DNA of 64,000 nucleotides, from NCBI GenBank assembly GCA_032718475.1, contig JAUCBJ010006005.1, positions 1 to 64,000 on the forward strand, read 5' to 3'. The notes under the pieces were generated by a model that worked only from the letters and a program-made list of their open reading frames with translations, was not told the origin of the DNA and did no database searches. Source of the DNA: Nemertoderma westbladi. Taxonomy: Eukaryota; Animalia; Xenacoelomorpha. The translations under genes and the position numbers were made by a program. How positions within the stretch are numbered: position 1 is the first letter of the stretch; each line of letters starts with the position of its first letter. Positions 1-47,074 of this stretch are shown here, piece after piece.

Positions 1-3000
1 CGACTATAAACCTACGAGGAGTCCGACTATAAACCTACCGAGGAGTCCGACTATAAACTTACCGAGGAGTCCGACTATAAACCTACCGAGGAGTCCGACT
101 ATAAACTTACCGAGGAGTCCGACTATAAACTTACCGAGGAGTCCGACTATAAACTTACCGAGGAGTCCGACTATAAACTTACCGAGGAGTCCGACTATAA
201 ACTTACCGAGGAGTCCGACTATAAACTTACCGAGGAGTCCGACTATAAACTTACCGAGGAGTCCGACTATAAACTTACCGAGGAGTCCGACTATAAACTT
301 ACCGAGGAGTCCGACTATAAACTTACCGAGGAGTCCGACTATAAACTTACCGAGGAGTCCGACTATAAACTTACCGAGGAGTCCGACTATAAACTTACCG
401 AGGAGTCCGACTATAAACTTACCGAGGAGTCCGACTATAAACTTACCGAGGAGTCCGACTATAAACTTACCGAGGAGTCCGACTATAAACTTACCGAGGA
501 GTCCGACTATAAACTTACCGAGGAGTCCGACTATAAACCTTACCGAGGAGTCCGACTATAAACCTTACCGAGGAGTCCGACTATAAACCTTACCGAGGAG
601 TCCGACTATAAACTTACCGAGGAGTCCGACTATAAACCTTACCGAGGAGTCCGACTATAAACCTTACCGAGGAGTCCGACTATAAACTTACCGAGGAGTC
701 CGACTATAAACCTACCGAGGAGTCCGACTATAAACCTACCGAGGAGTCCGACTATAAACCTACCGAGGAGTCCGACTATAAACCTACCGAGGAGTCCGAC
801 TATAAACCTACCGAGGAGTCCGACTATAAACCTACCGAGGAGTCCGACTATAAACCTACCGAGGAGTCCGACTATAAACCTACCGAGGAGTCCGACTATA
901 AACCTACCGAGGAGTCCGACTATAAACCTACCGAGGAGTCCGACTATAAACCTACCGAGGAGTCCGACTATAAACCTACCGAGGAGTCCGACTATAAACC
1001 TACCGAGGAGTCCGACTATAAACCTACCGAGGAGTCCGACTATAAACCTACCGAGGAGTCCGACTATAAACCTACCGAGGAGTCCGACTATAAACCTACC
1101 GAGGAGTCCGACTATAAACCTACCGAGGAGTCCGACTATAAACCTACCGAGGAGTCCGACTATAAACCTACCGAGGAGTCCGACTATAAACCTACCGAGG
1201 AGTCCGACTATAAACCTACCGAGGAGTCCGACTATAAACCTACCGAGGAGTCCGACTATAAACCTACCGAGGAGTCCGACTATAAACCTACCGAGGAGTC
1301 CGACTATAAACCTACCGAGGAGTCCGACTATAAACCTTACCGAGGAGTCCGACTATAAACCTTACCGAGGAGTCCGACTATAAACCTACCGAGGAGTCCG
1401 ACTATAAACCTACCGAGGAGTCCGACTATAAACCTACCGAGGAGTCCGACTATAAACCTACCGAGGAGTCCGACTATAAACCTACCGAGGAGTCCGACTA
1501 TAAACCTACCGAGGAGTCCGACTATAAACCTACCGAGGAGTCCGACTATAAACCTACCGAGGAGTCCGACTATAAACTTACCGAGGAGTCCGACTATAAA
1601 CCTACCGAGGAGTCCGACTATAAACCTACCGAGGAGTCCGACTATAAACCTACCGAGGAGTCCGACTATAAACCTACCGAGGAGTCCGACTATAAACCTA
1701 CCGAGGAGTCCGACTATAAACTTACCGAGGAGTCCGACTATAAACCTACCGAGGAGTCCGACTATAAACCTACCGAGGAGTCCGACTATAAACTTACCGA
1801 GGAGTCCGACTATAAACTTACCGAGGAGTCCGACTATAAACCTACCGAGGAGTCCGACTATAAACCTACCGAGGAGTCCGACTATAAACCTACCGAGGAG
1901 TCCGACTATAAACCTACCGAGGAGTCCGACTATAAACCTACCGAGGAGTCCGACTATAAACTTACCGAGGAGTCCGACTATAAACCTACCGAGGAGTCCG
2001 ACTATAAACCTACCGAGGAGTCCGACTATAAACCTACCGAGGAGTCCGACTATAAACCTACCGAGGAGTCCGACTATAAACCTACCGAGGAGTCCGACTA
2101 TAAACCTACCGAGGAGTCCGACTATAAACCTACCGAGGAGTCCGACTATAAACCTACCGAGGAGTCCGACTATAAACCTACCGAGGAGTCCGACTATAAA
2201 CCTACCGAGGAGTCCGACTATAAACCTACCGAGGAGTCCGACTATAAACCTACCGAGGAGTCCGACTATAAACCTACCGAGGAGTCCGACTATAAACCTA
2301 CCGAGGAGTCCGACTATAAACCTACCGAGGAGTCCGACTATAAACCTACCGAGGAGTCCGACTATAAACCTACCGAGGAGTCCGACTATAAACTTACCGA
2401 GGAGTCCGACTATAAACCTACCGAGGAGTCCGACTATAAACCTACCGAGGAGTCCGACTATAAACCTACCGAGGAGTCCGACTATAAACTTACCGAGGAG
2501 TCCGACTATAAACCTACCGAGGAGTCCGACTATAAACCTACCGAGGAGTCCGACTATAAACTTACCGAGGAGTCCGACTATAAACTTACCGAGGAGTCCG
2601 ACTATAAACCTACCGAGGAGTCCGACTATAAACCTACCGAGGAGTCCGACTATAAACCTACCGAGGAGTCCGACTATAAACCTACCGAGGAGTCCGACTA
2701 TAAACTTACCGAGGAGTCCGACTATAAACCTACCGAGGAGTCCGACTATAAACCTACCGAGGAGTCCGACTATAAACCTACCGAGGAGTCCGACTATAAA
2801 CCTACCGAGGAGTCCGACTATAAACCTACCGAGGAGTCCGACTATAAACCTACCGAGGAGTCCGACTATAAACCTACCGAGGAGTCCGACTATAAACCTA
2901 CCGAGGAGTCCGACTATAAACCTACCGAGGAGTCCGACTATAAACCTACCGAGGAGTCCGACTATAAACCTACCGAGGAGTCCGACTATAAACCTACCGA

Positions 3001-5606
3001 GGAGTCCGACTATAAACCTACCGAGGAGTCCGACTATAAACCTACCGAGGAGTCCGACTATAAACTTACCGAGGAGTCCGACTATAAACCTACCGAGGAG
3101 TCCGACTATAAACCTACCGAGGAGTCCGACTATAAACCTACCGAGGAGTCCGACTATAAACCTACCGAGGAGTCCGACTATAAACCTACCGAGGAGTCCG
3201 ACTATAAACCTACCGAGGAGTCCGACTATAAACCTACCGAGGAGTCCGACTATAAACCTACCGAGGAGTCCGACTATAAACCTACCGAGGAGTCCGACTA
3301 TAAACCTACCGAGGAGTCCGACTATAAACCTACCGAGGAGTCCGACTATAAACCTACCGAGGAGTCCGACTATAAACCTACCGAGGAGTCCGACTATAAA
3401 CCTACCGAGGAGTCCGACTATAAACCTACCGAGGAGTCCGACTATAAACCTACCGAGGAGTCCGACTATAAACCTACCGAGGAGTCCGACTATAAACCTA
3501 CCGAGGAGTCCGACTATAAACCTACCGAGGAGTCCGACTATAAACCTACCGAGGAGTCCGACTATAAACCTACCGAGGAGTCCGACTATAAACCTACCGA
3601 GGAGTCCGACTATAAACCTACCGAGGAGTCCGACTATAAACCTACCGAGGAGTCCGACTATAAACCTACCGAGGAGTCCGACTATAAACCTACCGAGGAG
3701 TCCGACTATAAACCTACCGAGGAGTCCGACTATAAACCTACCGAGGAGTCCGACTATAAACCTACCGAGGAGTCCGACTATAAACCTACCGAGGAGTCCG
3801 ACTATAAACCTACCGAGGAGTCCGACTATAAACCTACCGAGGAGTCCGACTATAAACCTACCGAGGAGTCCGACTATAAACCTACCGAGGAGTCCGACTA
3901 TAAACCTACCGAGGAGTCCGACTATAAACCTACCGAGGAGTCCGACTATAAACCTACCGAGGAGTCCGACTATAAACCTACCGAGGAGTCCGACTATAAA
4001 CCTACCGAGGAGTCCGACTATAAACCTACCGAGGAGTCCGACTATAAACCTACCGAGGAGTCCGACTATAAACCTACCGAGGAGTCCGACTATAAACCTA
4101 CCGAGGAGTCCGACTATAAACCTACCGAGGAGTCCGACTATAAACCTACCGAGGAGTCCGACTATAAACCTACCGAGGAGTCCGACTATAAACCTACCGA
4201 GGAGTCCGACTATAAACCTACCGAGGAGTCCGACTATAAACCTACCGAGGAGTCCGACTATAAACTTACCGAGGAGTCCGACTATAAACCTACCGAGGAG
4301 TCCGACTATAAACCTACCGAGGAGTCCGACTATAAACCTACCGAGGAGTCCGACTATAAACCTACCGAGGAGTCCGACTATAAACCTACCGAGGAGTCCG
4401 ACTATAAACCTACCGAGGAGTCCGACTATAAACCTACCGAGGAGTCCGACTATAAACCTACCGAGGAGTCCGACTATAAACCTACCGAGGAGTCCGACTA
4501 TAAACCTACCGAGGAGTCCGACTATAAACCTACCGAGGAGTCCGACTATAAACCTACCGAGGAGTCCGACTATAAACCTACCGAGGAGTCCGACTATAAA
4601 CCTACCGAGGAGTCCGACTATAAACCTACCGAGGAGTCCGACTATAAACCTACCGAGGAGTCCGACTATAAACCTACCGAGGAGTCCGACTATAAACCTA
4701 CCGAGGAGTCCGACTATAAACCTACCGAGGAGTCCGACTATAAACCTACCGAGGAGTCCGACTATAAACTTACCGAGGAGTCCGACTATAAACCTACCGA
4801 GGAGTCCGACTATAAACTTACCGAGGAGTCCGACTATAAACCTACCGAGGAGTCCGACTATAAACCTACCGAGGAGTCCGACTATAAACCTACCGAGGAG
4901 TCCGACTATAAACCTACCGAGGAGTCCGACTATAAACCTACCGAGGAGTCCGACTATAAACCTACCGAGGAGTCCGACTATAAACCTACCGAGGAGTCCG
5001 ACTATAAACCTACCGAGGAGTCCGACTATAAACCTACCGAGGAGTCCGACTATAAACCTACCGAGGAGTCCGACTATAAACCTACCGAGGAGTCCGACTA
5101 TAAACCTACCGAGGAGTCCGACTATAAACCTACCGAGGAGTCCGACTATAAACCTACCGAGGAGTCCGACTATAAACCTACCGAGGAGTCCGACTATAAA
5201 CCTACCGAGGAGTCCGACTATAAACCTACCGAGGAGTCCGACTATAAACCTACCGAGGAGTCCGACTATAAACCTACCGAGGAGTCCGACTATAAACCTA
5301 CCGAGGAGTCCGACTATAAACCTACCGAGGAGTCCGACTATAAACCTACCGAGGAGTCCGACTATAAACCTACCGAGGAGTCCGACTATAAACCTACCGA
5401 GGAGTCCGACTATAAACCTACCGAGGAGTCCGACTATAAACCTACCGAGGAGTCCGACTATAAACCTACCGAGGAGTCCGACTATAAACCTACCGAGGAG
5501 TCCGACTATAAACCTACCGAGGAGTCCGACTATAAACTTACCGAGGAGTCCGACTATAAACCTACCGAGGAGTCCGACTATAAACCTACCGAGGAGTCCG
5601 ACTATA
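1..5606. repeat. 24-bp tandem array (CCGAGGAGTCCGACTATAAAC[C/T]TA)n, about 230 units, truncated by the window edge
   Basis: Near-perfect periodicity. Variation is essentially one C/T site plus a few 25-bp units (about 540-670 and 1335-1365). The array overlaps exon 11 by about 17 bp. Confidence 0.99.
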
Positions 5607-5691
5607 GCTTGACAATCAGCCCCAGCGTAAATATCCTTGAGTTGGTCTGAAACTGGAAGGCATAACGTGTGAACTCGTATCCGACGCTCAC
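5590..5691 (-). CDS. SEC24: SEC24A/B-like exon 11 (GERRIRVHTLCLPVSDQLKDIYAGADCQAIVGLL). Its 3' boundary lies inside the 24-bp array and is uncertain. Not in the ORF track.
   Basis: Hand translation gives the conserved ERRIRVHT motif. Acceptor ttcttctgattctag| at 5692/5691. The first available donor is CTCG|GTAGGT at 5590/5589. Confidence 0.92.
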
Positions 5692-5726
5692 CTAGAATCA
5701 GAAGAAGATTCCGATGCTACTAATTC

Positions 5727-5912
5727 TGTCCCGGAAAATTCGGACCCAGAAAATTCGGTCCCGGACAAATTGAACCCAGACAATTCGGTCCCGGACAATT
5801 TTAACCCAGACAATTTTGGTCCCGGACAATCTGAACCCAGACAATTCGGTCCCGGACAATTTGAACCCAGACAATTCGGTCCCGGACAATTTTAACCCAG
5901 ACAATTCGGTCC
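5727..5912. repeat. 30-bp minisatellite built from two 15-bp subunits (CCCGGACAATTTGAA/CCCAGACAATTCGGT), about 6 units, in intron 10
   Basis: Direct inspection. It explains the repetitive ORF 5698..5904. Confidence 0.9.
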
Positions 5913-6046
5913 CAAAGAAGATAATACTGTACCAGGAAACGAATCATCAAAAATAAAGGAATCCAGTATCTTCACGAGGTAAATAGATTGTAGAAAACCG
6001 ACACAATAATAACAGCTGATATAGTCTGAATAATAACTATACTAAC

Positions 6047-6220
6047 CTTTACTACTGGTGTATAATACGGCAGCCTGTATAGTAGCTGCCTTGGTGTCGG
6101 TTAGCGCCTCATCCATAGAGAGCTGAAGTGCAAATCCGGCGTCAGGGTTGATGTTGGGTAGAGTCAGAAGATCGGTAGATCTAACGAACAAGTTGCCATG
6201 GAAAGTGTGAATAGCAAGAC
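6047..6220 (-). CDS. SEC24: SEC24A/B-like exon 10, beta-sandwich (LAIHTFHGNLFVRSTDLL...YTSSK)
   Basis: HTFHGN.FVRSTDLL is characteristic of Sec24A/B. Acceptor tcgcag| and donor G|GTTAGT, phase 1/1. Confidence 0.96.
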
Positions 6221-7773: not shown

Positions 7774-7932
7774 CTCTTGTACAACGAATTCTCATTACCG
7801 ACTCGAATCCTATTTTTCGGGTTAGGTATCGCGTTAAATCCGTCTCGAATTTATCCACCGAACTCAACTGAAGTCCGGAATTGTATTCGGGATAGTAATG
7901 GACGCACCCGCTGGAATACTTGGAAATTTGAC
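7774..7932 (-). CDS. SEC24: SEC24A/B-like exon 9 (QISKYSSG...RYLTRKIGFESVMRIRCTR)
   Basis: RYLTRKIGFE..MRIRCT is the trunk/beta-sandwich junction motif. Acceptor cctttag| and donor G|GTAAGT, phase 1/1. Confidence 0.96.
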
Positions 7933-8500: not shown

Positions 8501-8729
8501 CGACGGTGGCCAAGTCGCTGTACTGGGTGGCCAGTAGGAACAGATCGACGGCGATGTGCTGCCCGCTGCAATCCAAGGCCATCCGTTTGTACCAGTCGTT
8601 GGCCGGGTTGAGGTGCTGTATGGAGGACGAGTGGGATCTGGCGTTGGGATCCTCGCGGGATTTAAGGGATCCCGGACCCACGCTGGGGATAGCGCATTGG
8701 AAAACCGTGATCCGACCGCCCCACGTTTT
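8501..8729 (-). CDS. SEC24: SEC24A/B-like exon 8, trunk domain (KTWGGRITVFQ...YKRMALDCSGQHIAVDLFLL...YSDLATV)
   Basis: Conserved motifs in ORF 8487..8750. Acceptor tttatctacag| and donor G|GTAGGT, phase 0/1. Confidence 0.96.
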
Positions 8730-11045: not shown

Positions 11046-14000
11046 CATAAAATCTGTACCGTGTTGCGGACAGGACAAAGGTCAAAAAAAGTTTTCAGAA
11101 AGTTAAATATTCCCGTACTCAAATATTCTATTATAATGCTAGTGTGGTGTTTTAAAGTTTCCAAGCAATAGCACTTCTTGTTTTTAAAATACAGTATTTT
11201 AAATCTGGTCATCTGCCATTGTTGTGGATGGGACAAAGCCATGCCATTGTGCTGATAGATTATGTTTGCAAAAAAGATACACTGATATTTTGAGTTAAGA
11301 AACTAACAACAATGTTTAAGCATTCATTTTGTTAAAAAATAAGAACCTTGTTGTTATAAAAATACGTAAAAAATCTGAAATTCTATAAGAATTCTTAAAA
11401 ATTCTAAGAAATTCAGCAGCGTATCTTATGTGGACCCATCTCTATGGAAATAAGAAGCTAATATATAAATTATCAACGTCACAGATAATTGTTTAACATG
11501 AACTACAATACCGCAGTGATACAACTTAATATTTAGTTGGTGTTTACGAAAAATCGTACTTCTGGTACATTATGAATGTTGCGGATGGGACATTATATAC
11601 TTGTTTATCGAATATTGTGGGATTACGGGAAATTTAAAGCAACGCCAATTGGAGAGAAATATGGCAGCGACTGCTAACGACAAAAATTGGCTCTATGTTC
11701 ATAACACAAACATCATTTTGCAATTTTCTAATGATTCAACTATGTCCCGCCCGCAACTTTCATACCAAATTAGTAAATACTTAAATAGATAATACTAAAT
11801 ACTAAAAAGTTTAGAAACAGTTAAAAGTTCAGTGGAACAGCTGAAAGTTGCATATTAATGTCCCCAATGTCATTTTGTTTGACAAAATGGACTGGACAAT
11901 TGCCATCAAACTCTTACGTTTCTTCCTGAACTGCATTAGTTTCCAATAATTATATTATGGACTTTTCACATTCAGTCATTTGGCATTATGAAACGAATTA
12001 TTGAGTCACTAATTTGGCATTGTGAAAGGTCAATCAAGGCTTGTAAAGTATAATACCGATGTTGTTGACGTACCAATATCTTGTGGATCGACATTGTTCA
12101 CAATGTGGAGTTTTATTGTACAAAATAGACCTCAAGCACTATGTTTCTTTGAGACTGATAATAATGTGGCTGAAGGATTTTTCAAGTTAAATTTAAATCA
12201 GTAACATGTTCCGATCAGAAATATTATGATAATATAAAACATATCATCTTACATTGGCTGTATAAGTGAGTATCATACACCTAAATACGGATGGGACATC
12301 GGCATTTACTTGTCTGCCCGGGATTAACGGCCAATATATGTAAACTTTTTGTATTATTTATTAATTAGTAGGGTTAATGTCTTACATAAAAAATATATAT
12401 GGCCATTTGATAGTATCCAGGGCTTATAAGAAACGCCCGTTGTGGATGGGACAGGTTGTTTGTAATTTCAAACAAACGGTATAAATTTGAGTTATTTTTC
12501 AATAATACTTGGAGTATTGTGTCTAATTGCTAAAATACTGTGTGTATGTAATAATTGACCAACTTTTGGCCCAAAAATACACGTTATAATACCATTCGTG
12601 TTCCCCTAAATGAAGAATGTTTCGGATGGGACATTTAGCATGACAATTTTTGTTGCACAGATAAAGCTAAAATCAAATCCTAAAAATAGACCAATCCTTA
12701 TTTTTTTAACTTTAAAACGTAAGCTGGACATATACCACGTAATATTGAAGAGCTAATCTTTGAGCATATAATGTTCGTAAAAGGGTAGGTGTAAAACGCG
12801 GATCCGGATTCAGGATCCGGATACGGATCAGGACCCGGATTTGCGAGTGTAAAAGGCGGATCCGGATTTATATACAATCCGTAACTGAGTGTAATATGCG
12901 GATTCTGAAATACGCAATCCGTATTCCAGTGTAAAACGCGGATTCATATATTTTGTGAATCCGGAATGGAGTGTAAAACACGGATTTACGTTAATTACCA
13001 AGTTTTATTGGATCCGGAATGGAGTGTAAAACACGGATTTTCGTTAATTACCAAGTTTTGTTTGATCAGGAATGGAGTGTAAAACACGGATTTACGTTTA
13101 ATTACAAAGTTTTATTGGATCCGGAATGGAGTGTAAAATACGGATTTACGTTAATTACCAAGTTTTATTGGAACCGGAATGGAGTGTAAAACACGGAATT
13201 ACGTTAATTACCAAGTTTTATTGGATCCGGAATGGAGTGTAAAACACGGATTTACGTTAGTTACCAAGTTTTATTGGATCCGGAATGGGGTGTAAAACGC
13301 GGATTTAAGTTAGTTTCCATCCGGAAAAGGGTGTAAAACGCGGATTCAAGTTAATTAGTAAGTTTTAATGAACAATTTGTAAAACGCATATATGTAATAA
13401 AGACCCAGACCCTCATCTAGTTACAATTATGTAATTACAATTTTGTAATTAACGAAAATCCGTGTTTTACACTCCATTCCGGATCCAACAAAACTTGGTA
13501 ATTAACGAAAATCCGTGTTTTACACTCCATTCCGGATCCAATAAAACTTGGTAATTAACGAAAATCCGTGTTTTACACTCCATTCCGGATCCAACAAAAC
13601 TTGGTAGTTAACGAAAATCCGTATTTTACACTCCATTCCGGATCCAACAAAACTTGGTAATTAAAGAAAATCCGTGTTTTACACTCCATTCCGGATCCAA
13701 CAAAACTTGGTAGTTAACGAAAATCCGTGTTTTACACTCCATTCCGGATCCAACAAACTTGGTAATTAAAGAAAATCCGTGTTTTGCACTCCATTCCGGA
13801 TCCAACAAAACTTGGTAACTAACGTAAATCCGTGTTTTACACTCCATTCCGGATCCAATAAAACTTGGTAATTAACGTAAATCCGTGTTTTACACTCCAT
13901 TCCGATCCAATAAAAATTGGTAATTAACGTAAATCCGTGTTTTACACTCCATTCCCGATCCAACAAAACTTGGTAATTAACGTAAATCCGTGTTTTACAC

Positions 14001-16462
14001 TCCATTCCGGATCCAATAAAACTTGGTAATTAACGTAAATCCGTGTTTTACACTCCATTCCGGATCCAATAAAACTTGGTAATTAACGTAAATCCGTGTT
14101 TTACACTCCATTCCGGATCCAATAAAACTTGGTAATTAACGTAAATCCGTGTTTTACACTCCATTCCGGATCCAATAAAACTTGGTAATTAACGTAAATC
14201 CGTGTTTTACACTCCATTCCGGATCCAATAAAACTTGGTAATTTACGTAAATCCGTGTTTTACACTCCATTCCGGATCCAATAAAACTTGGTAATTAACG
14301 TAATTCCGTGTTTTACACTCCATTCCGGTTCCAATAAAAATTGGTAATTAACGTAAATCCGTGTTTTACACTCCATTCCGGATCCAACTAAACTAGGTAA
14401 TTAACGTAAATCCGTGTTTTACACTCCATTCCGGATCCAATAAAACTTGGTAATTAACGTAAATCCGTGTTTTACACTCCATTCCGGATCCAATAAAACT
14501 TGGTAATTAACGTAAATCCGTGTTTTACACTCCATTCCGGATCCAATAAAACTTGGTAATTAACGTAAATCCGTGTTTTACACTCCATTCCGGATCCAAT
14601 AAAACTTGGTAATTAACGTAAATCCGTGTTTTACACTCCATTCCGGATCCAATAAAACTTGGTAATTAACGTAAATCCGTGTTTTACACTCCATTAATTA
14701 ACGTAAATCCGTGTTTTACACTCCATTCCGGATCCAATAAAACTTGGTAATTAACGTAAATCCGTGTTTTACACTCCATTCCGGTTCCAATAAAAATTGG
14801 TAATTAACGTAAATCCGTGTTTTACACTCCATTCCGGATCCAATAAAACTTGGTAATTAACGTAAATCCGTGTTTTACACTCGATTCCGGTTCCAATAAA
14901 AATTGGTAATTAACGTAAATCCGTGTTTTACACTCCATTCCGGATCCAACTAAACTAGGTAATTAACGTAAATCCGTGTTTTACACTCCATTCCGGATCC
15001 AATAAAACTTGGTAATTAACGTAAATCCGTGTTTTACACTCCATTCCGGATCCAATAAAACTTGGTAATTAACGTAAATCCGTGTTTTACACTCCATTCC
15101 GGATCCAATAAAACTTGGTAATTAACGTAAATCCGTGTTTTACACTCCATTCCGGATCCAATAAAACTTGGTAATTAACGTAAATCCGTGTTTTACACTC
15201 CATTCCGGATCCAATAAAACTTGGTAATTAACGTAAATCCGTGTTTTACACTCCATTCCGGATCCAATAAAACTTGGTAATTAACGTAAATCCGTGTTTT
15301 ACACTCCATTAATTAACGTAAATCCGTGTTTTACACTCCATTAATTAACGTAAATCCGTGTTTTACACTCCATTCCGGATCCAATAAAACTTGGTAATTA
15401 ACGTAAATCCGTGTTTTACACTCCATTCCGGATCCAATAAAACTTGGTAATTAACGTAAATCCGTGTTTTACACTCCATTCCGGATCCAACAAAACTTGG
15501 TAATTAACGTAAATCCGTGTTTTACACTCCATTCCGGATCCAATAAAACTTTGTATTTAACGTAAATCCGTGTTTTACACTCCATTCCGGATCCAATAAA
15601 ACTTGGTAATTAACGTAACTCCGTGTTTTACACTCCATTCCGGATCCAATAAAACTTGGTAATTAACGTAAATCCGTGTTTCACACTCCATTCCGGATCC
15701 AATAAAACTTAGTAATTAACGTAAATCCGTTTTTTACACTCCATTCCGGATCCAATAAAACTTGGTAATTAACGTAAATCCGTGTTTTACACTCCATTCC
15801 GGATCCAATAAAACTTGGTAATTAACTAGAAACCGCGTTTTACACCCCTTCCCGGATCCATTAATGCATGGTAATTAACTTGAATCCGCGTTTTACACCA
15901 CTTCCCGGATCCAATAACACTTTGTAATAAACCTGAATCCGTATTTTACACCCAATCCCGGATTCAGTAGAAATATGAATCCGCGTTTTACACTCCGTTG
16001 AGGATTTAGCCTAAAACATGAATCCGCGCTTTACATTCCTTTCCGGATCTGAAAAAAAGGCCAATCCGCATTTTACACTCGGTTACGGATTCGGTAAATT
16101 TAGCAGTGCGCGTATCCGCAGATTACACCCTAAAAATGTAAATTCAGTCGACTTCCATAGGGACAATGTTAAATGATAGAATCCGGATCCTGATCCGGAT
16201 CCGCGTTTTACTCTGACCCCATAAATTATAGAACTAACGTTGTTTATTTTTCACAAATGTTGTGGATGGGACACAATTTATTATTATTTTAACTTCAAGA
16301 GGTCATGACATATTTTTGAGGAAGCCTTTTTGTGGCACATGGGTGGTATATTATTGTAGAATAAAATGAGCCATTACTCTTATATCTATGATGGTAAGTA
16401 TGAGAAATAAACGGCAATAAAATAGGCAAATGTCCCGTCCGCAACGCGGTACAGATTTGATG
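11046..16462. mobile_element. Older non-autonomous TIR element that hosts foldback copy 1
   Basis: Inverted termini: CATAAAATCTGTACCGTGTTGCGGACAGGACA, versus the reverse complement of 16431-16462 (CATCAAATCTGTACCGCGTTGCGGACGGGACA). GGATGGGACA motifs recur near 11225, 11583, 12289, 12444, 12624 and 16264. No TSD recognised. Confidence 0.65.
12783..16219. mobile_element. Foldback (Mutator-like) element copy 1, inverted arms of 53-bp tandem repeats, right arm greatly expanded
   Basis: Termini GGGTAGGTGTAAAACGCGGATCCGGA ... TCCGGATCCGCGTTTTACTCTGACCC. The unit GGATCCGGAATGGAGTGTAAAACACGGATTTACGTTAATTACCAAGTTTTATT runs in opposite orientation on the two sides of about 13370-13445. Confidence 0.88.
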
Positions 16463-16532: not shown

Positions 16533-16690
16533 AATTAGTTGATATGATATCTGAATAGCAGCTCCCATACTGCTTCTTGCATCAGTTTGGTTGGTAAATC
16601 TGTTCGGAAGTTCTCTCAGTAAATCTTGAACTAACGACAGACATTCCTTTATATTTACCAGCACAGAATCGGGAGAAGGTATAAAAACAT
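16533..16690 (-). CDS. SEC24: SEC24A/B-like exon 7, trunk domain (DVFIPSPDSVLVNIKEC...SSMGAAIQISYQLI), not in the ORF track
   Basis: Hand translation. Acceptor attattttag| and donor |GTGAGT. 158 bp, phase 1/0. Confidence 0.94.
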
Positions 16691-19451: not shown

Positions 19452-19683
19452 CATCAACATCGGGTACAACAACCATATGAGGTTTACTGAGTCCTTCGTG
19501 TAAATAGTGAAAGTGAACCGACGAATCGAATGTTATAATGGCAATACGTCGACGCGCGTCACCAGGCAGGTCTTCTAACTTATCCAATAGGACAGCAGTG
19601 GCGGAGGCGAGATAACCTGATTGGATGGCAGGTTGCGAGACGTCGAATAAGAATATATAGATTGCGGGTTGGGGAGGCCGGAG
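19452..19683 (-). CDS. SEC24: SEC24A/B-like exon 6, start of the trunk (vWA-like) domain
   Basis: Translates LRPPQPAIYIFLFDVS...LDKLEDLPGDARRRIAIITFDSSVHF...VVPDVD. Acceptor tttctatag| and donor G|GTAAGA, phase 0/1. Confidence 0.96.
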
Positions 19684-19750
19684 CTATAGAAATACAAGTT
19701 AATAAACTTAGGGAGATGGACCTATTCATTCGTACGGCCTGGACAAGGCC

Positions 19751-22700
19751 TATTTGTACCTGGTCTATTCGTACACGGACGCTTCGTACTTGGACAATTT
19801 GTACCTGGTCTATTCGTACCCGGACACTTCGTACATGTACTATTTGTACCGGTCCATTCGTACCCAGACACTTCGTACATGTACTATTTGTACCGGTCTA
19901 TTCGTACACGGACGCTTCGTACTTGGACAATTTGTACCTGGTCTATTCGTACCCGGACACTTCGTACATGTACTATTTGTACCGGTCCATTCGTACCCAG
20001 ACACTTCGTACATGTACTATTTGTACCGGTCTATTCGTACACGGACGCTTCGTACTTGGACAATTTGTACCTGGTCTATTCGTACCCGGACACTTCGTAC
20101 ATGTACTATTTGTACCGGTCCATTCGTACCCAGACACTTCGTACATGTACTATTTGTACCTGGTCTATTCGTACCCGGACACTTCGTACCTGTACTATTT
20201 GTACCTGGTCTATTCGTACCCGGACACTTCGTACATGTACTATTTGTACCGGTCCATTCGTACCCAGACACTTCGTACATGTACTATTTGTACCTGGTCT
20301 ATTCGTACACGGACGCTTCGTACATGTACTATTTGTACCGGTCCATTCGTACCCAGACACTTCGTACATGTACTATTTGTACCTGGTCTATTCGTACACG
20401 GACGCTTCGTACTTGGACTATTTGTACCTGGTCTATTCGTACACGGACGCTTCGTACATGTACTATTTGTACCGGTCCATTCGTACCCAGACACTTCGTA
20501 CATGTACTATTTGTACCTGGTCTATTCGTACACGGACGCTTCGTACTTGGACTATTTGTACCTGGTCTATTCGTACCCAGACACTTCGTACATGTACTAT
20601 TTGTACCGGTCCATTCGTACCCAGACACTTCGTACATGTACTATTTGTACCTGGTCTATTCGTACACGGACGCTTCGTACTTGGACTATTTGTACCTGGT
20701 CTATTCGTACACGGACGCTTCGTACTTGGACTATTTGTACCGGTCCATTCGTACCCGGACGCTTCGTACATGTACTATTTGTACCTGGTCTATTCGTACC
20801 CAGACACTTCGCACCTAGACTATTTGTACCTGGTCTATTCGTACCCAGACACTTCGTACCTGTACTATTTGTACCTGGTCTATTCGTACCCAGACACTTC
20901 GTACCTGTACTATTTGTACCTGGTCTATTCGTACCCAGACACTTCGTACCGAGACTATTTGTACCTGGCCCATTCGTACCCAGACACTTCGTACATGTAC
21001 TATTTGTACCTGGTCTATTCGTACACGGACGCTTCGTACTTGGACTATTTGTACCGGTCCATTCGTACCCGGACGCTTCGTACATGTACTATTTGTACCT
21101 GGTCTATTCGTACCCAGACACTTCGCACCTAGACTATTTGTACCTGGTCTATTCGTACCCAGACACTTCGTACCTGTACTATTTGTACCTGGTCTATTCG
21201 TACCCAGACACTTCGTACCGAGACTATTTGTACCTGGCCCATTCGTACCCAGACACTTCGTACATGTACTATTTGTACCTGGTCTATTCGTACCCAGACA
21301 CTTCGCACCTAGACTATTTGTACCTGGTCTATTCGTACCCAGACACTTCGCACCTAGACTATTTGTACCTGGTCTATTCGTACCCAGACACTTCGTACCT
21401 GTACTATTTGTACCTGGTCTATTCGTACCCAGACACTTCGCACCTAGACTATTTGTACCTGGTCTATTCGTACCCAGACACTTCGCACCTAGACTATTTG
21501 TACCTGGTCTATTCGTACCCAGACACTTCGCACCTAGACTATTTGTACCTGGTCTATTCGTACCCAGACACTTCGTACCTGTACTATTTGTACCTGGTCT
21601 ATTCGTACCCAGACACTTCGCACCTAGACTATTTGTACCTGGTCTATTCGTACCCAGACACTTCGCACCTAGACTATTTGTACCTGGTCTATTTGTACCC
21701 AGACACTTCGCACCTAGACTATTTGTACCTGGTCTATTTGTACACAGACACTTCGCACCTAGACTATTTGTACCTGGTCTATTCGTACCCAGACACTTCG
21801 TACCTGTACTATTTGTACCTGGTCTATTCGTACCCAGACACTTCGCACCTAGACTATTTGTACCTGGTCTATTCGTACCCAGACACTTCGTACCTGTACT
21901 ATTTGTACCTGGTCTATTCGTACCCAGACACTTCGCACCTAGACTATTTGTACCTGGTCTATTCGTACCCAGACACTTCGTACCTGTACTATTTGTACCT
22001 GGTCTATTCGTACCCAGACACTTCGTACCTGTACTATTTGTACCTGGTCTATTCGTACCCAGACACTTCGCACCTAGACTATTTGTACCTGGTCTATTCG
22101 TACCCAGACACTTCGTACCTGTACTATTTGTACCTGGTCTATTCGTACCCAGACACTTCGTACCTGTACTATTTGTACCTGGTCTATTCGTACCCAGACA
22201 CTTCGTACCTGTACTATTTGTACCTGGTCTATTCGTACCCAGACACTTCGCACCTAGACTATTTGTACCTGGTCTATTTGTACCCAGACACTTCGCACCT
22301 AGACTATTTGTACCTGGTCTATTTGTACACAGACACTTCGTACCTGTACTATTTGTAGCGGTCTATTCGTACCCAGACAGTTCGTACATGTACTATTTGT
22401 ACCTGGTCTATTCGTACCCAGACACTTCGTACCTGTACTATTTGTACCTGGTCTATTCGTACCCAGACACTTCGTACCTGTACTATTTGTACCTGGTCTA
22501 TTCGTACCCAGACACTTCGCACCTAGACTATTTGTACCTGGTCTATTCGTACACAGACACTTCGCACCTAGACTATTTGTACCTGGTCTATTCGTACCCA
22601 GACACTTCGCACCTAGACTATTTGTACCTGGTCTATTCGTACCCAGACACTTCGTACCTGTACTATTTGTACCTGGTCTATTCGTACCCAGACACTTCGT

Positions 22701-25700
22701 ACCTGTACTATTTGTACCTGGTCTATTCGTACCCAGACACTTCGCACCTAGACTATTTGTACCTGGTCTATTCGTACACAGACACTTCGCACCTAGACTA
22801 TTTGTACCTGGTCTATTCGTACCCAGACACTTCGCACCTAGACTATTTGTACCTGGTCTATTCGTACCCAGACACTTCGCACCTAGTACTATTTGTACCT
22901 GGTCTATTCGTACCCAGACACTTCGTACCTGTACTATTTGTACCTGGTCTATTCGTACCCAGACACTTCGCACCTAGACTATTTGTACCTGGTCTATTCG
23001 TACACAGACACTTCGCACCTAGACTATTTGTACCTGGTCTATTCGTACCCAGACACTTCGCACCTAGACTATTTGTACCTGGTCTATTCGTACCCAGACA
23101 CTTCGTACCTGTACTATTTGTACCGGTCCATTCGTACCCAGACACTTCGTACATGTACTATTTGTACCTGGTCTATTCGTACCCGGACGCTTCGTACTTG
23201 GACTATTTGTACCTGGTCTATTCGTACCCAGACACTTCGTACCTGTACTATTTGTACCTGGTCCATTCGTACCCGGACACTTCGTACCTGTACTATTTGT
23301 ACCTGGTCTATTCGTACCCAGACACTTCGTACCTGTACTATTCCTGTACCCAGACACTTCGCACCTAGACTATTTGTACCTGGTCTATTCGTACACAGAC
23401 ACTTCGCACCTAGACTATTTGTACCTGGTCTATTCGTACCCAGACACTTCGCACCTAGTACTATTTGTACCTGGTCCATTCGTACCCAGACACTTCGTAC
23501 CTGTACTATTTGTACCTGGTCTATTCGTACCCAGACACTTCGTACCTGTACTATTTGTACCTGGTCTATTCGTACACAGACACTTCGCACCTAGACTATT
23601 TGTACCTGGTCTATTCGTACCCAGACACTTCGCACCTAGACTATTTGTACCTGGTCTATTCGTACCCAGACACTTCGTACCTGTACTATTTGTACCGGTC
23701 CATTCGTACCCAGACACTTCGTACATGTACTATTTGTACCTGGTCTATTCGTACACGGACGCTTCGTACTTGGACTATTTGTACCTGGTCTATTCGTACC
23801 CAGACACTTCGTACCTGTACTATTTGTACCGGTCCATTCGTACCCGGACACTTCGTACCTGTCCTATTAGTACCTGGTCCATTCGTACCCTGACACTTCG
23901 TACATGTACTATTTGTACCTGGTCTATTCGTACACGGACGCTTCGTACATGTACTATTTGTACCTGGTCTATTCGTACCCAGACACTTCGTACCTGTACT
24001 ATTTGTACCTGGTCTATTCGTACCCAGACACTTCGCACCTAGACTATTTGTACCTGGTCTATTCGTACACAGACACTTCGCACCTAGACTATTTGTACCT
24101 GGTCTATTCGTACCCAGACACTTCGTACCTGTACTATTTGTACCGGTCCATTCGTACCCAGACACTTCGTACATGTACTATTTGTACCTGGTCTATTCGT
24201 ACACGGACGCTTCGTACTTGGACTATTTGTACCTGGTCTATTCGTACCCAGACACTTCGTACCTGTACTATTTGTACCGGTCCATTCGTACCCGGACACT
24301 TCGTACCTGTCCTATTAGTACCTGGTCCATTCGTACCCTGACACTTCGTACATGTACTATTTGTACCTGGTCTATTCGTACCCAGACACTTCGTACCTGT
24401 ACTATTTGTACCTGGTCTATTCGTACCCAGACACTTCGTACCTGTACTATTTGTACCTGGTCTATTCGTACCCAGACACTTCGCACCTAGACTATTTGTA
24501 CCTGGTCTATTCGTACCCAGACACTTCGCACCTAGACTATTTGTACCTGGTCTATTCGTACCCAGACACTTCGTACCTGTACTATTTGTACCTGGTCCAT
24601 TCGTACCCAGACACTTCGTACCTGTACTATTTGTACCTGGTCCATTCGTACCCAGACACTTCGTACCTGTACTATTTGTACCTGGTCTATTCGTACCCAG
24701 ACACTTCGTACCATGTACTATTTGTACCTGGTCTATTCGTACCCGAACGCTTCGTACATGTACTATTTGTACCGGTCCATTCGTACCCGAACACTTCGTA
24801 CCTGTACTACTTGTACCTGGTCTATTCGTACCCGAACGCTTCGTACATGTACTATTTGTACCGGTCCATTCGTACCCGAACACTTCGTACCTGTACTATT
24901 TGTACCGGTCCATTCGTACCCAGACACTTCGTACATGTACTACTTGTACCTGGTCTATTCGTACCCGAACGCTTCGTACATGTACTATTTGTACCGGTCC
25001 ATTCGTACCCGAACACTTCGTACCTGTACTATTTGTACCGGTCCATTCGTACCCGAACACTTCGTACCTGTACTACTTGTACCTGGTCTATTCGTACCCG
25101 AACGCTTCGTACATGTACTATTTGTACCGGTCCATTCGTACCCGAACGCTTCGTACATGTACTATTTGTACCGGTCCATTCGTACCCAGACACTTCGTAC
25201 ATGTACTACTTGTACCTGGTCTATTCGTACCCGAACGCTTCGTACATGTACTATTTGTACCGATCCATTCGTACCCGAACACTTCGTACCTGTACTATTT
25301 GTACCGGTCCATTCGTACCCAGACACTTCGTACATGTACTATTTGTACCGGTCCATTCGTACCCAGACACTTCGTACATGTACTACTTGTACCTGGTCCA
25401 TTCGTACCCAGACACTTCGTACCTGTACTATTTGTACCGGTCCATTCGTACCCAGACACTTCGTACATGTACTACTTGTACCTGGTCTATTCGTACCCGA
25501 ACGCTTCGTACATGTACTATTTGTACCGGTCCATTCGTACCCGAACACTTCGTACCTGTACTATTTGTACCGGTCCATTCGTACCCAGACACTTCGTACA
25601 TGTACTACTTGTACCTGGTCCATTCGTACCCAGACACTTCGTACCTGTACTATTTGTACCGGTCCATTCGTACCCAGACACTTCGTACCTGTACTATTTG

Positions 25701-28700
25701 TACCGGTCCATTCGTACCCAGACACTTCGTACCTGTACTATTTGTACCGGCCCATTCGTACCCAGACACTTCGTACATGTACTACTTGTACCTGGTCCAT
25801 TCGTACCCAGACACGTCGTACCTGGACTATTTGTACCGGTCCATTCGTACCCAGACACTTCGTACCTGAACTATTTGTACCTGGTCTATTCGTACCCAGA
25901 CACTTCGTACCTGTACTATTTGTACCTGGTCCATTCGTACCCTGACACTTCGTACATGTACTATTTGTACCTGGTCTATTCGTACACGGACGCTTCGTAC
26001 TTGGACTATTTGTACCGGTCCATTCGTACCCGGACGCTTCGTACCTGGACTATTTGTACCTGGTCCATTCGTACCCAGACACTTCGTACCTGTACTATTT
26101 GTACCGGTCCATTCGTACCCAGACACTTCGTACCTGAACTATTTGTACCTGGTCTATTCGTACCCAGACACTTCGTACATGTACTATTTGTACCTGGCCC
26201 ATTCGTACCCAGACACTTCGTACCTGTACTATTTGTACCTGGCCCATTCGTACCCAGACACTTCGTACCTGTCCTATTAGTACCTGGTCCATTCGTACCC
26301 TGACACTTCGTACATGTACTATTTGTACCTGGTCTATTCGTACCCAGACACTTCGTACCTGAACTATTTGTACCTGGTCTATTCGTACCCAGACACTTCG
26401 TACATGTACTATTTGTACCTGGCCCATTCGTACACAGACACTTCGTACATGTACTATTTGTACCTGGCCCATTCGTACCCAGACACTTCGTACCTGTACT
26501 ATTTGTACCTGGTCCATTCGTACCCAGACACTTCGTACCTGTCCTATTAGTACCTGGTCCATTCGTACCCAGACACTTCGTACCTGTACTATTTGTACCG
26601 GTCTATTCGTACACGGACGCTTCGTACTTGGACTATTTGTACCTGGTCTATTCGTACCCAGACACTTCGTACATGTACTATTTGTACCTGGTCTATTCGT
26701 ACCCAGACACGTCGTACCGAGACTATTTGTACCTGGTCTATTCGTACCCAGACACTTCGTACATGTACTATTTGTACCTGGCCCATTCGTACACAGACAC
26801 TTCGTACATGTACTATTTGTACCTGGCCCATTCGTACCCAGACACTTCGTACCTGTACTATTTGTACCTGGCCCATTCGTACCCAGACACTTCGTACCTG
26901 TCCTATTAATACCTGGTCCATTCGTACCCAGACACTTCGTACCTGTACTATTTGTACCGGTCTATTCGTACACGGACGCTTCGTACTTGGACTATTTGTA
27001 CCTGGTCTATTCGTACCCAGACACTTCGTACATGTACTATTTGTACCTGGTCTATTCGTACCCAGACACGTCGTACCGAGACTATTTGTACCTGGTCTAT
27101 TCGTACCCAGACACTTCGTACATGTACTATTTGTACCTGGTCTATTCGTACACGGACGCTTCGTACTTGGACTATTTGTACCTGGTCTATTCGTACCCAG
27201 ACACTTCGTACATGTACTATTTGTACCTGGTCTATTCGTACCCAGACACATCGTACCTGTACTATTTGTACCTGGTCTATTCGTACCCAGACACTTCGTA
27301 CATGTACTATTTGTACCTGGTCTATTCGTACACGGACGCTTCGTACTTGGACTATTTGTACCTGGTCTATTCGTACCCAGACACTTCGTACATGTACTAT
27401 TTGTACCTGGTCTATTCGTACCCAGACACATCGTACCTGTACTATTTGTACCTGGTCTATTCGTACCCGGACGCTTCGTACATGTACTATTTGTACCGGT
27501 CTATTCGTACACGGACGCTTCGTACTTGGACTATTTGTACCTGGTCTATTCGTACCCAGACACTTCGTACCTGTTCTATTAGTACCTGGTCCATTCGTAC
27601 CCTGACACTTCGTACATGTACTATTTGTACCGGTCTATTCGTACACGGACGCTTCGTACTTGGACTATTTGTACCTGGTCTATTCGTACCCAGACACTTC
27701 GTACATGTACTATTTGTACCTGGTCTATTCGTACCCAGACACATCGTACCTGTACTATTTGTACCTGGTCTATTCGTACCCAGACACTTCGTACATGTAC
27801 TATTTGTACCTGGTCTATTCGTACACGGACGCTTCGTACTTGGACAATTTGTACCTGGTTTATTCGTACCTGGTCTATTCGTACCCAGACACGTCGTACC
27901 GAGACTATTTGTACCTGGTCCATTTGTACCCAGACACATCGTACCTGTACTATTTGTACCTTGTCCATTTGTACACAGACACTTCGTACATGTACTATTT
28001 GTACCTTGTCCATTTGTACACAAACACTTCGTACATGTACTATTTGTACCTGGTCTATTCGTACCCAGACACGTCGTACCGAGACTATTTGTACCTGGTC
28101 CATTCGTACCCAGACACTTCGTACCTGTACTATTTGTACCGGTCCATTCGTACCCGGACGCTTCGTACCTGGACTATTTGTACCTGGTCTAATCGTACCC
28201 AGACACTTCGTACCTGTACTATTTGTACCGGTCCATTCGTACCCGGACGCTTCGTACCTGGACTATTTGTACCTGGTCCATTCGTACCCAGACACTTCGT
28301 ACCTGTACTATTTGTACCGGTCCATTCGTACCCGGACGCTTCGTACCTGGACTATTTGTACCTGGTCCATTCGTACCCAGACACTTCGTACCTGTACTAT
28401 TTGTACCGGTCCATTCGTACCCGGACGCTTCGTACCTGGACTATTTGTACCTGGTCCATTCGTACCCAGACACTTCGTACCTGTACTATTTGTACCGGTC
28501 CATTCGTACCCGGACGCTTCGTACCTGGACTATTTGTACCTGGTCCATTCGTACCCAGACACTTCGTACCTGTACTATTTGTACCGGTCCATTCGTACCC
28601 GGACCCTTCGTACCTGGACCATTTGTACCTGGTCTATTCGTACCCAGACACGTCGTACCGAGACTATATGTACCTGGTCCATTCGTACCCGGACGCTTCG

Positions 28701-30111
28701 TACCTGTACTATTTGTACCGGTCCATTCGTACCCGGACGCTTCGTACCTGTACTATTTGTACCGGTCCATTCGTACCCGGACGCTTCGTACCTGGACTAT
28801 TTGTACCGGTCCATTCGTACCCGGACGCTTCGTACCTGGACTATTTGTACCGGTCCATTCGTACCCGGACACTTCGTACCTGTACTATTTGTACCTGGTC
28901 TATTCGTACACAGACACTTCGTACCTGTACTATTTGTACCTGGTCTATTCGTACCCAGACACTTCGTACCTGGACTATTTGTACCGGTCCATTCGTACCC
29001 GGACGCTTCGTACCTGGACTATTTGTACCGGTCCATTCGTACCCGGACGCTTCGTACCTGGACTATTTGTACCGGTCCATTCGTACCCGGACGCTTCGTA
29101 CCTGGACTATTTGTACCGGTCCATTCGTACCCGGACGCTTCGTACCTGGACTATTTGTACCGGTCCATTCGTACCCGGACACTTCGTACCTGTACTATTT
29201 GTACCTGGTCTATTCGTACACAGACACTTCGTACCTGTACTATTTGTACCGGTCCATTCGTACCCGGACGCTTCGTACCTGGACTATTTGTACCGGTCCA
29301 TTCGTACCCGGACGCTTCGTACCTGGACTATTTGTACCGGTCCATTCGTACCCGGACACTTCGTACCTGTACTATTTGTACCTGGTCTATTCGTACACAG
29401 ACACTTCGTACCTGTACTATTTGTACCTGGTCCATTCGTACCCAGACACTTCGTACCTGTACTATTTGTACCGGTCCATTCGTACCCGGACGCTTCGTAC
29501 CTGGACTATTTGTACCTGGTCTATTCGTACCCAGACACATCGTACCTGTACTATTTGTACCTGGTCCATTCGTACCCGGACGCTTCGTACCTGTACTATT
29601 TGTACCGGTCCATTCGTACCCGGACGCTTCGTACCTGTACTATTTGTACCTGGTCTATTCGTACCCGAACGCTTCGTACCTGTACTATTTGTACCGGTCC
29701 ATTCGTACCCGGACGCTTCGTACCTGTACTATTTGTACCGGTCCATTCGTACCCAGACACTTCGTACCTGTTCTATTTGTACCTGGTCTATTCGTACCCA
29801 GACAGTTCGTACATGTACTATTTGTACCTGGTCTATTCGTACCCGAACGCTTCGTACCTGTACTATTTGTACCGGCCCATTCGTACCCGGACACTTCGTA
29901 CCTGGACTATTTGTACCGGTCCATTCGTACCCAGACACTTCGTACCTGTACTATTTGTACCTGGTCTATTCGTACCCGAACGCTTCGTACCTGTACTATT
30001 TGTACCGGTCCATTCGTACCCAGACACTTCGTACCTGTACTATTTGTACCGGTCCATTCGTACCCGGACGCTTCGTACCTGTACTATTAGTACCGGTCCA
30101 TTCGTACCCAG
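19751..30111. repeat. 44/45-bp satellite of three 15-bp subunits (TATTTGTACCTGGTC TATTCGTACCCAGAC ACTTCGTACCTGTAC), about 230 units
   Basis: Direct periodicity with regional variant blocks. It is the source of all the long repetitive ORFs between 19662 and 30158. Confidence 0.99.
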
Positions 30112-37489: not shown

Positions 37490-37920
37490 CCAGACACTTC
37501 GTACCTGTTCTATTTGTACCTGGTCTATTCGTACCCAGACAGTTCGTACATGTACTATTTGTACCGGTCCATTCGTACCCAGACACTTCGTACCTGAACT
37601 ATTTGTACCTGGTCTATTCGTACCCAGACACTTCGTACTTGGACTATTTGTACCTGGTCTATTCGTACACAGACACTTCGTACCTGTACTATTTGTACCG
37701 GTCCATTCGTACCCGGACGCTTCGTACCTGTACTATTTGTACCGGTCCATTCGTACCCGGACGCTTCGTACCTGTACTATTTGTAGCGGTCCATTCGTAC
37801 CCAGACAGTTCGTACATGTACTATTTGTACCGGTCCATTCGTACCCGGACGCTTCGTACCTGTACTATTTGTACCGGTCCATTCGTACCCAGACACTTCG
37901 TACCTGTACCATTTGTACCA
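37490..37920. repeat. Remainder of the 44/45-bp satellite (about 10 units)
   Basis: Same unit as 19751-30111. One further unit separates the duplicated blocks at 35347-35395. Confidence 0.95.
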
Positions 37921-37962: not shown

Positions 37963-38199
37963 CATATATTCTGAAGGCGCAATAAACTCTACAGTTGAGT
38001 TTCTAATCTCAGTCCGTCGCTGCGGGTTCCCGTGAGTTTTACTAACTGGATCGTAAAGGAACTCGTCGGGGACCTCATTGTGTCGGTAACAGACGTTACA
38101 GCGCCAATGACGTTGATCCACAAACGTTACATAAGGATTGATGTAGGTCCGACAGGAGCGACAACGAACAATCGGGGATGATTGAATCACCGGTAGAGT
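37963..38199 (-). CDS. SEC24: SEC24A/B-like exon 5, Sec23/Sec24 zinc finger (CRSC...CNVC)
   Basis: Translates TLPVIQSSPIVRCRSCRTYINPYV...WRCNVCYRHNEVPDEF...TVEFIAPSEYM. Acceptor ttttcag| and donor ATG|GTTAGT. 237 bp, phase 0/0. Confidence 0.97.
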
Positions 38200-46971: not shown

Positions 46972-47074
46972 TCTCAGATCTTTAAAAGGATGCAGAAGAA
47001 TTCCCAGTGGTAGGCGGGATTTTTTCAATAAACTTTCAGTTTCAGGTAGGGTAGTTAACGTGCAACGAAGAGAG
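46972..47074 (-). CDS. SEC24: SEC24A/B-like exon 4 (SLRCTLTTLPETESLLKKSRLPLGILLHPFKDLR), not in the ORF track
   Basis: Hand translation matches the conserved RCTL...LPLG.LLHPFKDL motif. Acceptor ttttttgcag| and donor |GTAAGT. 103 bp, phase 2/0. Confidence 0.95.

What the first reader, a model, noticed from the sequence alone, without database searches (positions are those of the whole stretch)
1..5691. Satellite made from a SEC24 exon end: about 230 tandem, in-frame 5' splice sites
Seen: on the gene strand, exon 11 reads ...GAT TGT CAA GCT [ATA GTC GGA CTC CTC GGT AGG TTT]n. The first unit of the array is therefore the coding sequence IVGLL itself, and each unit contains CTCG|GTAGGT or CTCG|GTAAGT. 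The unit is 24 bp and has no stop in the SEC24 frame. Each successive donor is thus in the same phase and adds 8 residues (G[R/K]FIVGLL) for roughly 175 units, until the first 25-bp unit near 1360. Known: GTAAGT is the U1-complementary donor consensus, and this position is at the start of the Sec24 helical domain, just after the cargo-binding RRIRVHT motif. Inference: an essential gene tolerates a multi-kilobase ladder of competing donors. This could produce graded insertion isoforms, act as a U1 snRNP sink, or require a strict rule for choosing the proximal donor.
Basis: partly seen in the sequence, partly recalled or inferred. Interest (0 to 1): 0.85.

Follow-up and report, generated by a model that had tools for sequence, protein, structure and literature searches.

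The report
Splice-donor satellite in SEC24 intron
The last 16 bases of one exon of an animal's SEC24 protein-export gene, with its splice signal, are repeated at least 233 times into the next intron, but the one spliced transcript seen joins at the first copy, so this is likely a large, harmless case of a repeat type already known from human and lancelet genes.

Summary
The array is real: at least 233 copies of a 24-bp unit (16 exon + 8 intron bases) at the end of the ERRIRVHT exon of an intact-looking SEC24A/B gene, running off the window start. 177 donors are in frame before the first stop. It is present in DNA runs of two samples with a different unit mix, so it is no assembly artefact. The isoform ladder is not supported: run X4 behaves as RNA, and its only contig here (4,682 nt, depth 300) splices at the first donor with no extra unit. 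Contigs cannot exclude minor use of later donors. This matches human F7/CBS/LMNB2 junction VNTRs and amphioxus 'mirages', where mostly the first donor is used. The scan has noted at least eight similar arrays in this genome (unchecked notes). New here: this intron lies 9 nt upstream of the position held in 39 of 39 distinct intron-bearing relatives, while its neighbours are conserved. Whether the array caused that shift is untested because its far end is outside the window. Verdict: new member of a known kind, interest 0.3.

The parts
1..5605 (-). Tandem array of the exon H end plus 5' splice site; 24-bp unit, at least 233 copies, cut by the window start
5582..5605 (-). Unit 1: last 16 exon bases (5605-5590, IVGLL plus 1 base) and first 8 intron bases (5589-5582)
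   Evidence: splice point from the X4 contig
5584..5589 (-). Donor used in the spliced contig (GTAGGT); 9 nt upstream of the donor position conserved in other animals
1366..5566 (-). Pseudo-donors 2-177, in phase, each would add 8 residues (G[R/K]FIVGLL); no use seen
1337..1381 (-). First 25-bp unit (no. 177, 1381-1357) and first in-frame stop (1339-1337)
1..707 (-). Distal block rich in GTAAGT-type and 25-bp units (units 201-232: 21 K-type, 5 of 25 bp, 6 R-type)
5590..5691 (-).
6047..6220 (-). Exon G; its end is joined to exon H in the X4 contig
7774..7932 (-). Exon F, carries VMRIR (B-site arginines, R750/R752 in human numbering)
8501..8729 (-). Exon E (trunk domain)
16533..16690 (-). Exon D (trunk domain)
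19452..19683 (-). Exon C (trunk domain start)
37963..38199 (-). Exon B (zinc finger)
46972..47074 (-). Exon A

Best explanation
The array is a tandem repeat of the exon H/intron boundary of a SEC24A/B gene; the spliced transcript seen uses only the first donor, so the other copies are likely silent pseudo-donors in a tolerated, likely neutral intronic minisatellite of the 'mirage'/F7 type. Shown: the unit is exon end plus donor; the array is in DNA of two samples, with a unit mix that differs from the window; the dominant spliced form has no extra unit. Inferred: a junction segment of at least 28 bp was duplicated, a 4-nt slip gave the 24-bp unit, and slippage or unequal exchange amplified it, as for the other multi-kb satellites that fill about 60% of this gene. 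Inferred from F7 and from exon definition: the spliceosome commits to the most upstream donor behind the exon H acceptor, so array length hardly affects the mRNA. The 9-nt upstream position of this intron most likely predates the array, because the unit copies the already shifted donor.
For:: X4 has one contig here (4,682 nt, depth 299.6, no mismatch over 5588-5693). Its loose end at 5693 is the end of exon G, so it is spliced. Its loose end at 5588, read by hand, continues the frame as G-C-M-A-V-D-R-T-Y-Q-S, matching [S/A][K/N]MAVDR in 115 of 120 relatives, so no unit is retained. X4's share of words (0.18) fits the exon share of that stretch (664 of 3,241 nt). DNA runs X1 (sample S1) and X2/X3 (S2) hold array contigs at depths of about 100-700. 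X2 record 14 (depth 19.2) joins exon H to the array without a loose end. K-type units are 42% in X1 and 46% in X3 against 43 of 232 K-type or 25-bp units in the window. S2 has a 4-nt insertion that restores the four exon bases before unit 1 (28-bp unit; depth 195.9 in X3, 21.3 in X2, 0 in X1), and record 14 ends at 5580, where a 31-mer graph would branch if those bases are shared. The used donor is the weaker type (7 Watson-Crick + 1 wobble pair to U1, against 8 for unit 3), as in F7, where position beats strength (PMC1557585). Eight exons are open and bounded by AG/GT. No unusual RNA fold (z = -0.34).
Against: One RNA-like run only, as contigs, which drop rare variants, so minor +8/+16 aa forms are not excluded; IFI6 and CBS do use two extra donors (PMC1557585, Introduction). 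X4 is labelled 'DNA?' by the tool and is a different sample (S3) from the DNA runs. X4 has no array contig at all, although more than 230 copies would pile even a little pre-mRNA into a visible signal. That could be clean mRNA or filtering, but also an animal with a short or absent array, in which case X4 says nothing about splicing across a long array. The far end of the array and the next acceptor were not seen. Neutrality was not tested. First-donor scanning was shown in mammalian cells, not in this animal.
Confidence: 0.8

Rival explanations
1. Short ladder: donors 2-3 (at most up to about 9) are used at a meaningful level and give SEC24 forms with 8 or 16 extra residues in the first helix of the helical domain.
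For: Donors 1-177 are in phase and stop-free. Unit 3 pairs better with U1 than unit 1. IFI6 and CBS use two extra donors (PMC1557585, Introduction). An unchecked note on GALNS in this genome reports a second donor in use.
Against: Only the first-donor form is in X4. The segment has no indel among 115 of 120 relatives with the motif. Frame-breaking 25- and 28-bp units persist.
Confidence: 0.08
2. The array is tied to the change of intron position: either it arose at a cryptic donor inside Gly-Lys codons and first-donor preference moved the intron 9 nt upstream, or the array is itself a new intron whose last copy supplies the acceptor, with the 9 nt coding G-C-M kept as a micro-exon or as the start of the next exon.
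For: 39 of 39 distinct intron-bearing loci have the donor after Met+1 and none at the window's site; 13 of 15 genomic read-through ORFs agree. Neighbouring introns are at conserved sites. The shift is a multiple of three, and Gly-Lys occurs at this place in relatives (P0125, L074). Ebner et al. proposed that mirages create new intron positions (PMC3087553, passages).
Against: The unit holds the shifted donor, which is simplest if the shift came first. GTAAGT is the ordinary donor word, so the 'G-K-F' reading of K-type units is expected by chance. The F/G intron of SEC24 appears to sit 2 nt upstream in 5 of 20 intron-bearing loci; of the three I checked, L030 and L049 have no TRF array at all. 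9-nt near-intron pairs by sliding are known without arrays (PMC2891723).
Confidence: 0.08
3. The array acts as a U1 snRNP sink or other regulatory device.
For: 232 donor-like sites in 5.6 kb of nascent RNA.
Against: No data point to it. The array's make-up varies between samples. No donor-spanning repeat in 51 of 51 intron-bearing loci of relatives (median 1.3 kb of intron held). A few hundred sites on short-lived nascent RNA are small against the cell's U1 pool (own knowledge).
Confidence: 0.02
4. The array is an assembly artefact, or lies in a dead SEC24 copy.
For: Its true length could not be measured; the window ends inside it.
Against: Array contigs in two samples and a contig joining it to exon H; structured unit variants; eight intact exons; a spliced contig identical to exon H.
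Confidence: 0.02

Closest known systems
Human F7 intron 7 37-bp VNTR (Borensztajn et al. 2006, PMC1557585; seen: abstract, 12 passages, whole Discussion)
   Same: First unit spans the exon/intron boundary; identical pseudo-donors follow; only the most upstream donor is used, even against stronger downstream sites.
   Different: 5-9 copies against at least 233; 4 exon bases per unit against 16; a 37-bp unit shifts frame, the 24-bp unit does not; mammal against an invertebrate-like animal.
Human IFI6 (6-16), CBS intron 13, LMNB2 and PDGF intron 4 junction minisatellites (as summarised in the Introduction of PMC1557585; primary papers not read)
   Same: Donor reiterated 10-25 times; LMNB2 and PDGF use only the first donor.
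   Different: IFI6 and CBS also use two further donors, which was not seen here (contigs only); arrays about ten times shorter.
Amphioxus 'mirage' minisatellites (Adh3, globins BflGb6/BflGb9; Ebner et al. 2010, PMC3087553; seen: 6 passages)
   Same: Tandem copies of an exon-intron boundary, polymorphic between haplotypes, normal mRNA, recurrent in one genome.
   Different: 3-6 copies in BflGb6 against hundreds. Their model of a mirage making a new intron position is hypothetical; here a shifted intron and an array coincide, without proof of cause.
Near intron pairs by intron sliding (Lehmann et al. 2010, PMC2891723; seen: 12 passages)
   Same: Novel position under 32 nt from the ancient one, distance a multiple of three (9-nt cases listed).
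   Different: No satellite is mentioned in the passages seen; no sister species were available here to tell sliding from loss and gain.

Membership tests
Junction-spanning minisatellite (mirage / F7 type) | First unit spans a real exon/intron boundary | tested here: met
   16 exon + 8 intron bases; splice point fixed by the X4 contig
Junction-spanning minisatellite (mirage / F7 type) | Head-to-tail copies reiterate the splice signal in the adjacent intron | tested here: met
   232 donor-like sites in 233 units
Junction-spanning minisatellite (mirage / F7 type) | Polymorphic between alleles or individuals | tested here: met
   Unit mix differs: K-type 42% (X1), 46% (X3), 43 of 232 K-type or 25-bp (visible window part); 28-bp variant in S2 only. 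Length polymorphism not measured.
Junction-spanning minisatellite (mirage / F7 type) | Mature mRNA is mainly normal (authentic donor used) | tested here: met
   One contig, one run, first donor; that animal's array was not seen
Junction-spanning minisatellite (mirage / F7 type) | Pseudo-donors are functional when upstream ones are lost | not testable with these tools
   Needs a minigene test as in PMC1557585
Multi-donor ladder (IFI6/CBS type) | Transcripts that use donors 2-3 | tested here: inconclusive
   None in X4, but contigs drop rare variants
Near intron pair | Intron within 32 nt of an ancient position in an alignable coding region | tested here: met
   9 nt upstream of the site in 39 of 39 distinct intron-bearing loci
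Near intron pair | The ancient position is intron-free in this gene | tested here: inconclusive
   Genomic DNA of the next exon is outside the window; a 9-nt micro-exon is not excluded
SEC24A/B | Zinc finger, trunk, beta-sandwich and helical domains in order; closer to Sec24A/B than C/D; B-site VMRIR | tested here: met
   most of the helical domain and the gelsolin repeat lie outside the window

The most novel reading that the evidence does not exclude
A mirage caught moving an intron: the satellite seeded on a cryptic donor in the exon's Gly-Lys codons, first-donor preference made it the real donor, and the intron of an essential COPII gene shifted 9 nt (or the array became a new intron ahead of a 9-nt micro-exon). 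In a genome with many giant junction satellites this would be a recurring route to new intron positions and the first direct support for the model proposed for amphioxus globins that my searches could find.
Probability: 0.1. Interest if true: 0.65.

Novelty: new member of a known kind. Interest (0 to 1): 0.3.

Why it matters
As it stands, it extends the first-donor rule from 5-25 copies in human genes to more than 230 in-frame copies in a conserved trafficking gene, with stronger donors 48 nt downstream apparently ignored. That makes a clean natural test of 5' splice-site choice outside mammals. The single locus is not surprising. The better question is genome-wide: why this animal repeatedly amplifies its own splice junctions into multi-kb satellites, and whether introns with such arrays sit at shifted positions more often than others. 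If they do, mirages would be a demonstrable cause of intron movement.

Tried and rejected
No whole genome is held for this window, so the far end of the array, the next exon's acceptor and a genome-wide count were out of reach. No RNA holder listed among the 6 runs; X4 turned out to be spliced when laid. Single-copy depth for X1 and X3 and the intron-read background of X4 were not obtained, so array length was not estimated from depth; exon H has no cover in X1 and X3, which proves nothing. No contig showing the exit from the array was among the 23 of 46 records displayed. The unit pattern has 0 matches in metagenome contigs and no look-alike among earlier findings; nothing was noted near this place or on mirage plus intron shift. 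Cluster look-up of 10 of the 15 read-through ORFs gave no names. RNA fold of exon H plus the first units: z = -0.34, no masking structure. Rejected: (a) that the unit is wholly exonic (IVGLL-G-K-F): K-F occurs in 5 of 80 loci, but the mRNA reads G-C-M and GTAAGT is the ordinary donor word; (b) selection for frame: five of eight codons are exon by construction and 25/28-bp units persist; (c) recursive splicing through the AG|GT in R-type units: no evidence either way, not needed for an intron of this size.
Full report
Observation. TRF gives 1-5606, period 24, 233.3 copies, 99% matches. On the minus strand unit 1 starts at 5605. Of 233 units, 189 have the donor word GTAGGT (R-type), 36 have GTAAGT (K-type), 7 are 25 bp, and the last is a 23-bp variant at the window edge. 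The frame of exon H stays open through the array to a stop at 1339-1337, and donors 1-177 are in phase. K-type and 25-bp units cluster at the far end (units 201-232: 21 K, 5 of 25 bp, 6 R). The unit is found nowhere else in the window. The array runs off the window, so 233 is a minimum.

The gene. The exon matches human Sec24A (E 1.9e-9) and Sec24B far better than Sec24C/D. Five of the 120 fetched homologues were used as tblastn queries and placed eight exons between 47074 and 5590. With corrected limits, all eight are open and bounded by AG/GT (one search had three limits off by 1-2 nt). Pfam's helical domain begins at the D of GAD, so the unit peptide IVGLL lies in its first residues. With a single offset of 345, the B-site residues V748/R750/R752 fall on VMRIR in exon F and I818 on the I of RRIRVHT (PMC5464768 and PMC12463132, passages). 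About 60% of the gene span (28,594 of 47,821 nt) is tandem array, and only this array shares 12-mers with an exon. The best homologues are 73% and 63% identical; the taxon is undetermined.

Is it real? Four of six listed runs were laid on 5534-5721. X1 (sample S1) and X2/X3 (S2) hold short array contigs at depths of about 100-700, and X2 record 14 (220 nt, depth 19.2) runs from exon H into the array with no loose end. One of these samples may be the source of the window, but two samples hold the array. The unit mix differs: K-type is 42% in X1 and 46% in X3, against 43 of 232 K-type or 25-bp units in the visible part of the window; the unseen distal part may account for some of this. S2 has a 4-nt insertion (depth 195.9 in X3, 21.3 in X2, none in X1, none in the window) that restores the four exon bases preceding unit 1. 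Record 14 ends at 5580, where a 31-mer graph branches if those four bases are shared. I infer a 28-bp or longer founding unit and a 4-nt slip to 24 bp. Array length could not be estimated from depth.

What is spliced. X4 is labelled 'DNA?' but behaves as RNA. Its share of words is 0.18, close to the exon share of the stretch (664 of 3,241 nt). Its single contig here (4,682 nt, depth 299.6) matches 5588-5693 without mismatch, and its loose end at 5693 is the end of exon G (compared by eye). Its loose end at 5588, translated by hand, continues as G-C-M-A-V-D-R-T-Y-Q-S. Relatives read [S/A][K/N]MAVDR here (115 of 120 have the motif; M and A invariant). So the dominant mRNA uses donor 1 and holds no extra unit. 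Donor 1 is the weaker type (7 Watson-Crick + 1 wobble pair to U1, against 8 for unit 3; U1 motif recalled). Limits: one run; contigs drop rare forms; the animal of X4 was not typed for the array, and X4 has no array contig at all, which could mean clean mRNA, filtering, or a short or absent array in that animal.

An overlooked feature. The junction in X4 falls after Leu plus one base. In other animals it falls 9 nt later, after Met (or Phe) plus one base. Of 15 short genomic ORFs, 13 break at M-G and 2 read through. Of the best 80 of 217 metagenome loci (65 distinct), 39 have GT at the later site, none at the window's site, 25 read through, and 1 reads through with an in-frame stop. The two introns upstream are at conserved sites in this gene: G/H has GT at the same place in 42 of 42 non-read-through loci, F/G in 15 of 20, and the other 5 appear shifted by 2 nt. 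None of 51 intron-bearing loci repeats its donor. So this is a 9-nt near-intron pair in the sense of Lehmann et al. (PMC2891723, passages), unless a 9-nt micro-exon hides beyond the array. The unit copies the shifted donor, so the shift most simply came first; a causal link is open.

Mechanism. Shown: unit = exon end + donor; presence and variation in two samples; first-donor splicing in one contig. Inferred: local duplication of the junction, then amplification by slippage or unequal exchange in a satellite-rich genome; the first donor wins by position, as shown for F7 in mammalian cells (PMC1557585: abstract, 12 passages, Discussion), and donors beyond no. 9 would make an exon over 300 nt (the size limit is own knowledge). 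The in-frame unit needs no selective explanation. I put this at 0.8, a meaningful short ladder at 0.08, an array-driven intron shift at 0.08, and a U1 sink or an artefact at 0.02 each.

Comparison and novelty. The class is described: F7 (5-9 copies), IFI6 (25 pseudo-sites, two extra used), CBS (15-20, two extra used), LMNB2 and PDGF (first only), all as summarised in PMC1557585; and amphioxus mirages, which leave the mRNA normal and were proposed as a source of new intron positions (PMC3087553, 6 passages). The testable defining features are met. A search for SEC24 + intron + minisatellite found 0 papers; searches on junction VNTRs, mirages and intron sliding listed no report of this locus or of an array shown to move an intron, judged from titles and abstract openings. 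The library lacks most subscription papers, and no supplements were read. Earlier notes of this scan list at least eight similar or larger arrays in this genome and several in other animals; these are unchecked, and they gave me the 'mirage' lead. Verdict: real, exon-derived, most likely tolerated; a new, large member of a known kind, with an unexplained 9-nt intron shift as the one open point. Interest 0.3.

Noticed in passing
window 5590/5589 (minus strand): The intron after exon H lies 9 nt upstream of the site conserved in 39 of 39 distinct intron-bearing relatives; neighbouring introns are conserved.
   Followed up: yes
window 5722-46488: The other SEC24 introns hold unrelated multi-kb satellites: 15/45-bp (19750-30109, ending 66 nt from the exon C acceptor; related short arrays at 5722-5914 and 37490-37919), 63-bp (38333-46488) and 53-bp (12959-15963). 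None shares 12-mers with an exon.
   Followed up: partly
window 19750-30108 (+ strand): The 15-bp satellite has stop-free stretches of over 830 codons in all three plus-strand frames; probably a by-product of a stop-free unit.
   Followed up: no
window 8501-8494 (minus strand): The exon E donor has nearly the same context as the amplified donor (TCG|GTAGGTT) but is not repeated, so donor sequence alone does not decide where an array forms.
   Followed up: no
runs X2/X3 on window 5556: A 28-bp unit variant with four more exon bases is present in sample S2 but not in X1 or the visible window.
   Followed up: yes
run X4 on window 5534-5582: No array contig in the RNA-like run, although collapsed repeats should amplify any pre-mRNA signal; unexplained.
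   Followed up: no
L030, L049/L050, L070/L072 (end of the RIRCTR exon): The F/G intron of SEC24 appears to start 2 nt upstream of the usual site in these loci; L030 and L049 have no tandem array.
   Followed up: partly
L038, L041, L044, L045, L048: Phe replaces the otherwise invariant Met after the exon H peptide (K-F), in 5 of 80 loci.
   Followed up: partly
L047 versus L055/L056: Same sequence apart from an in-frame stop in L047 (AVD*), probably a sequencing or assembly error.
   Followed up: no
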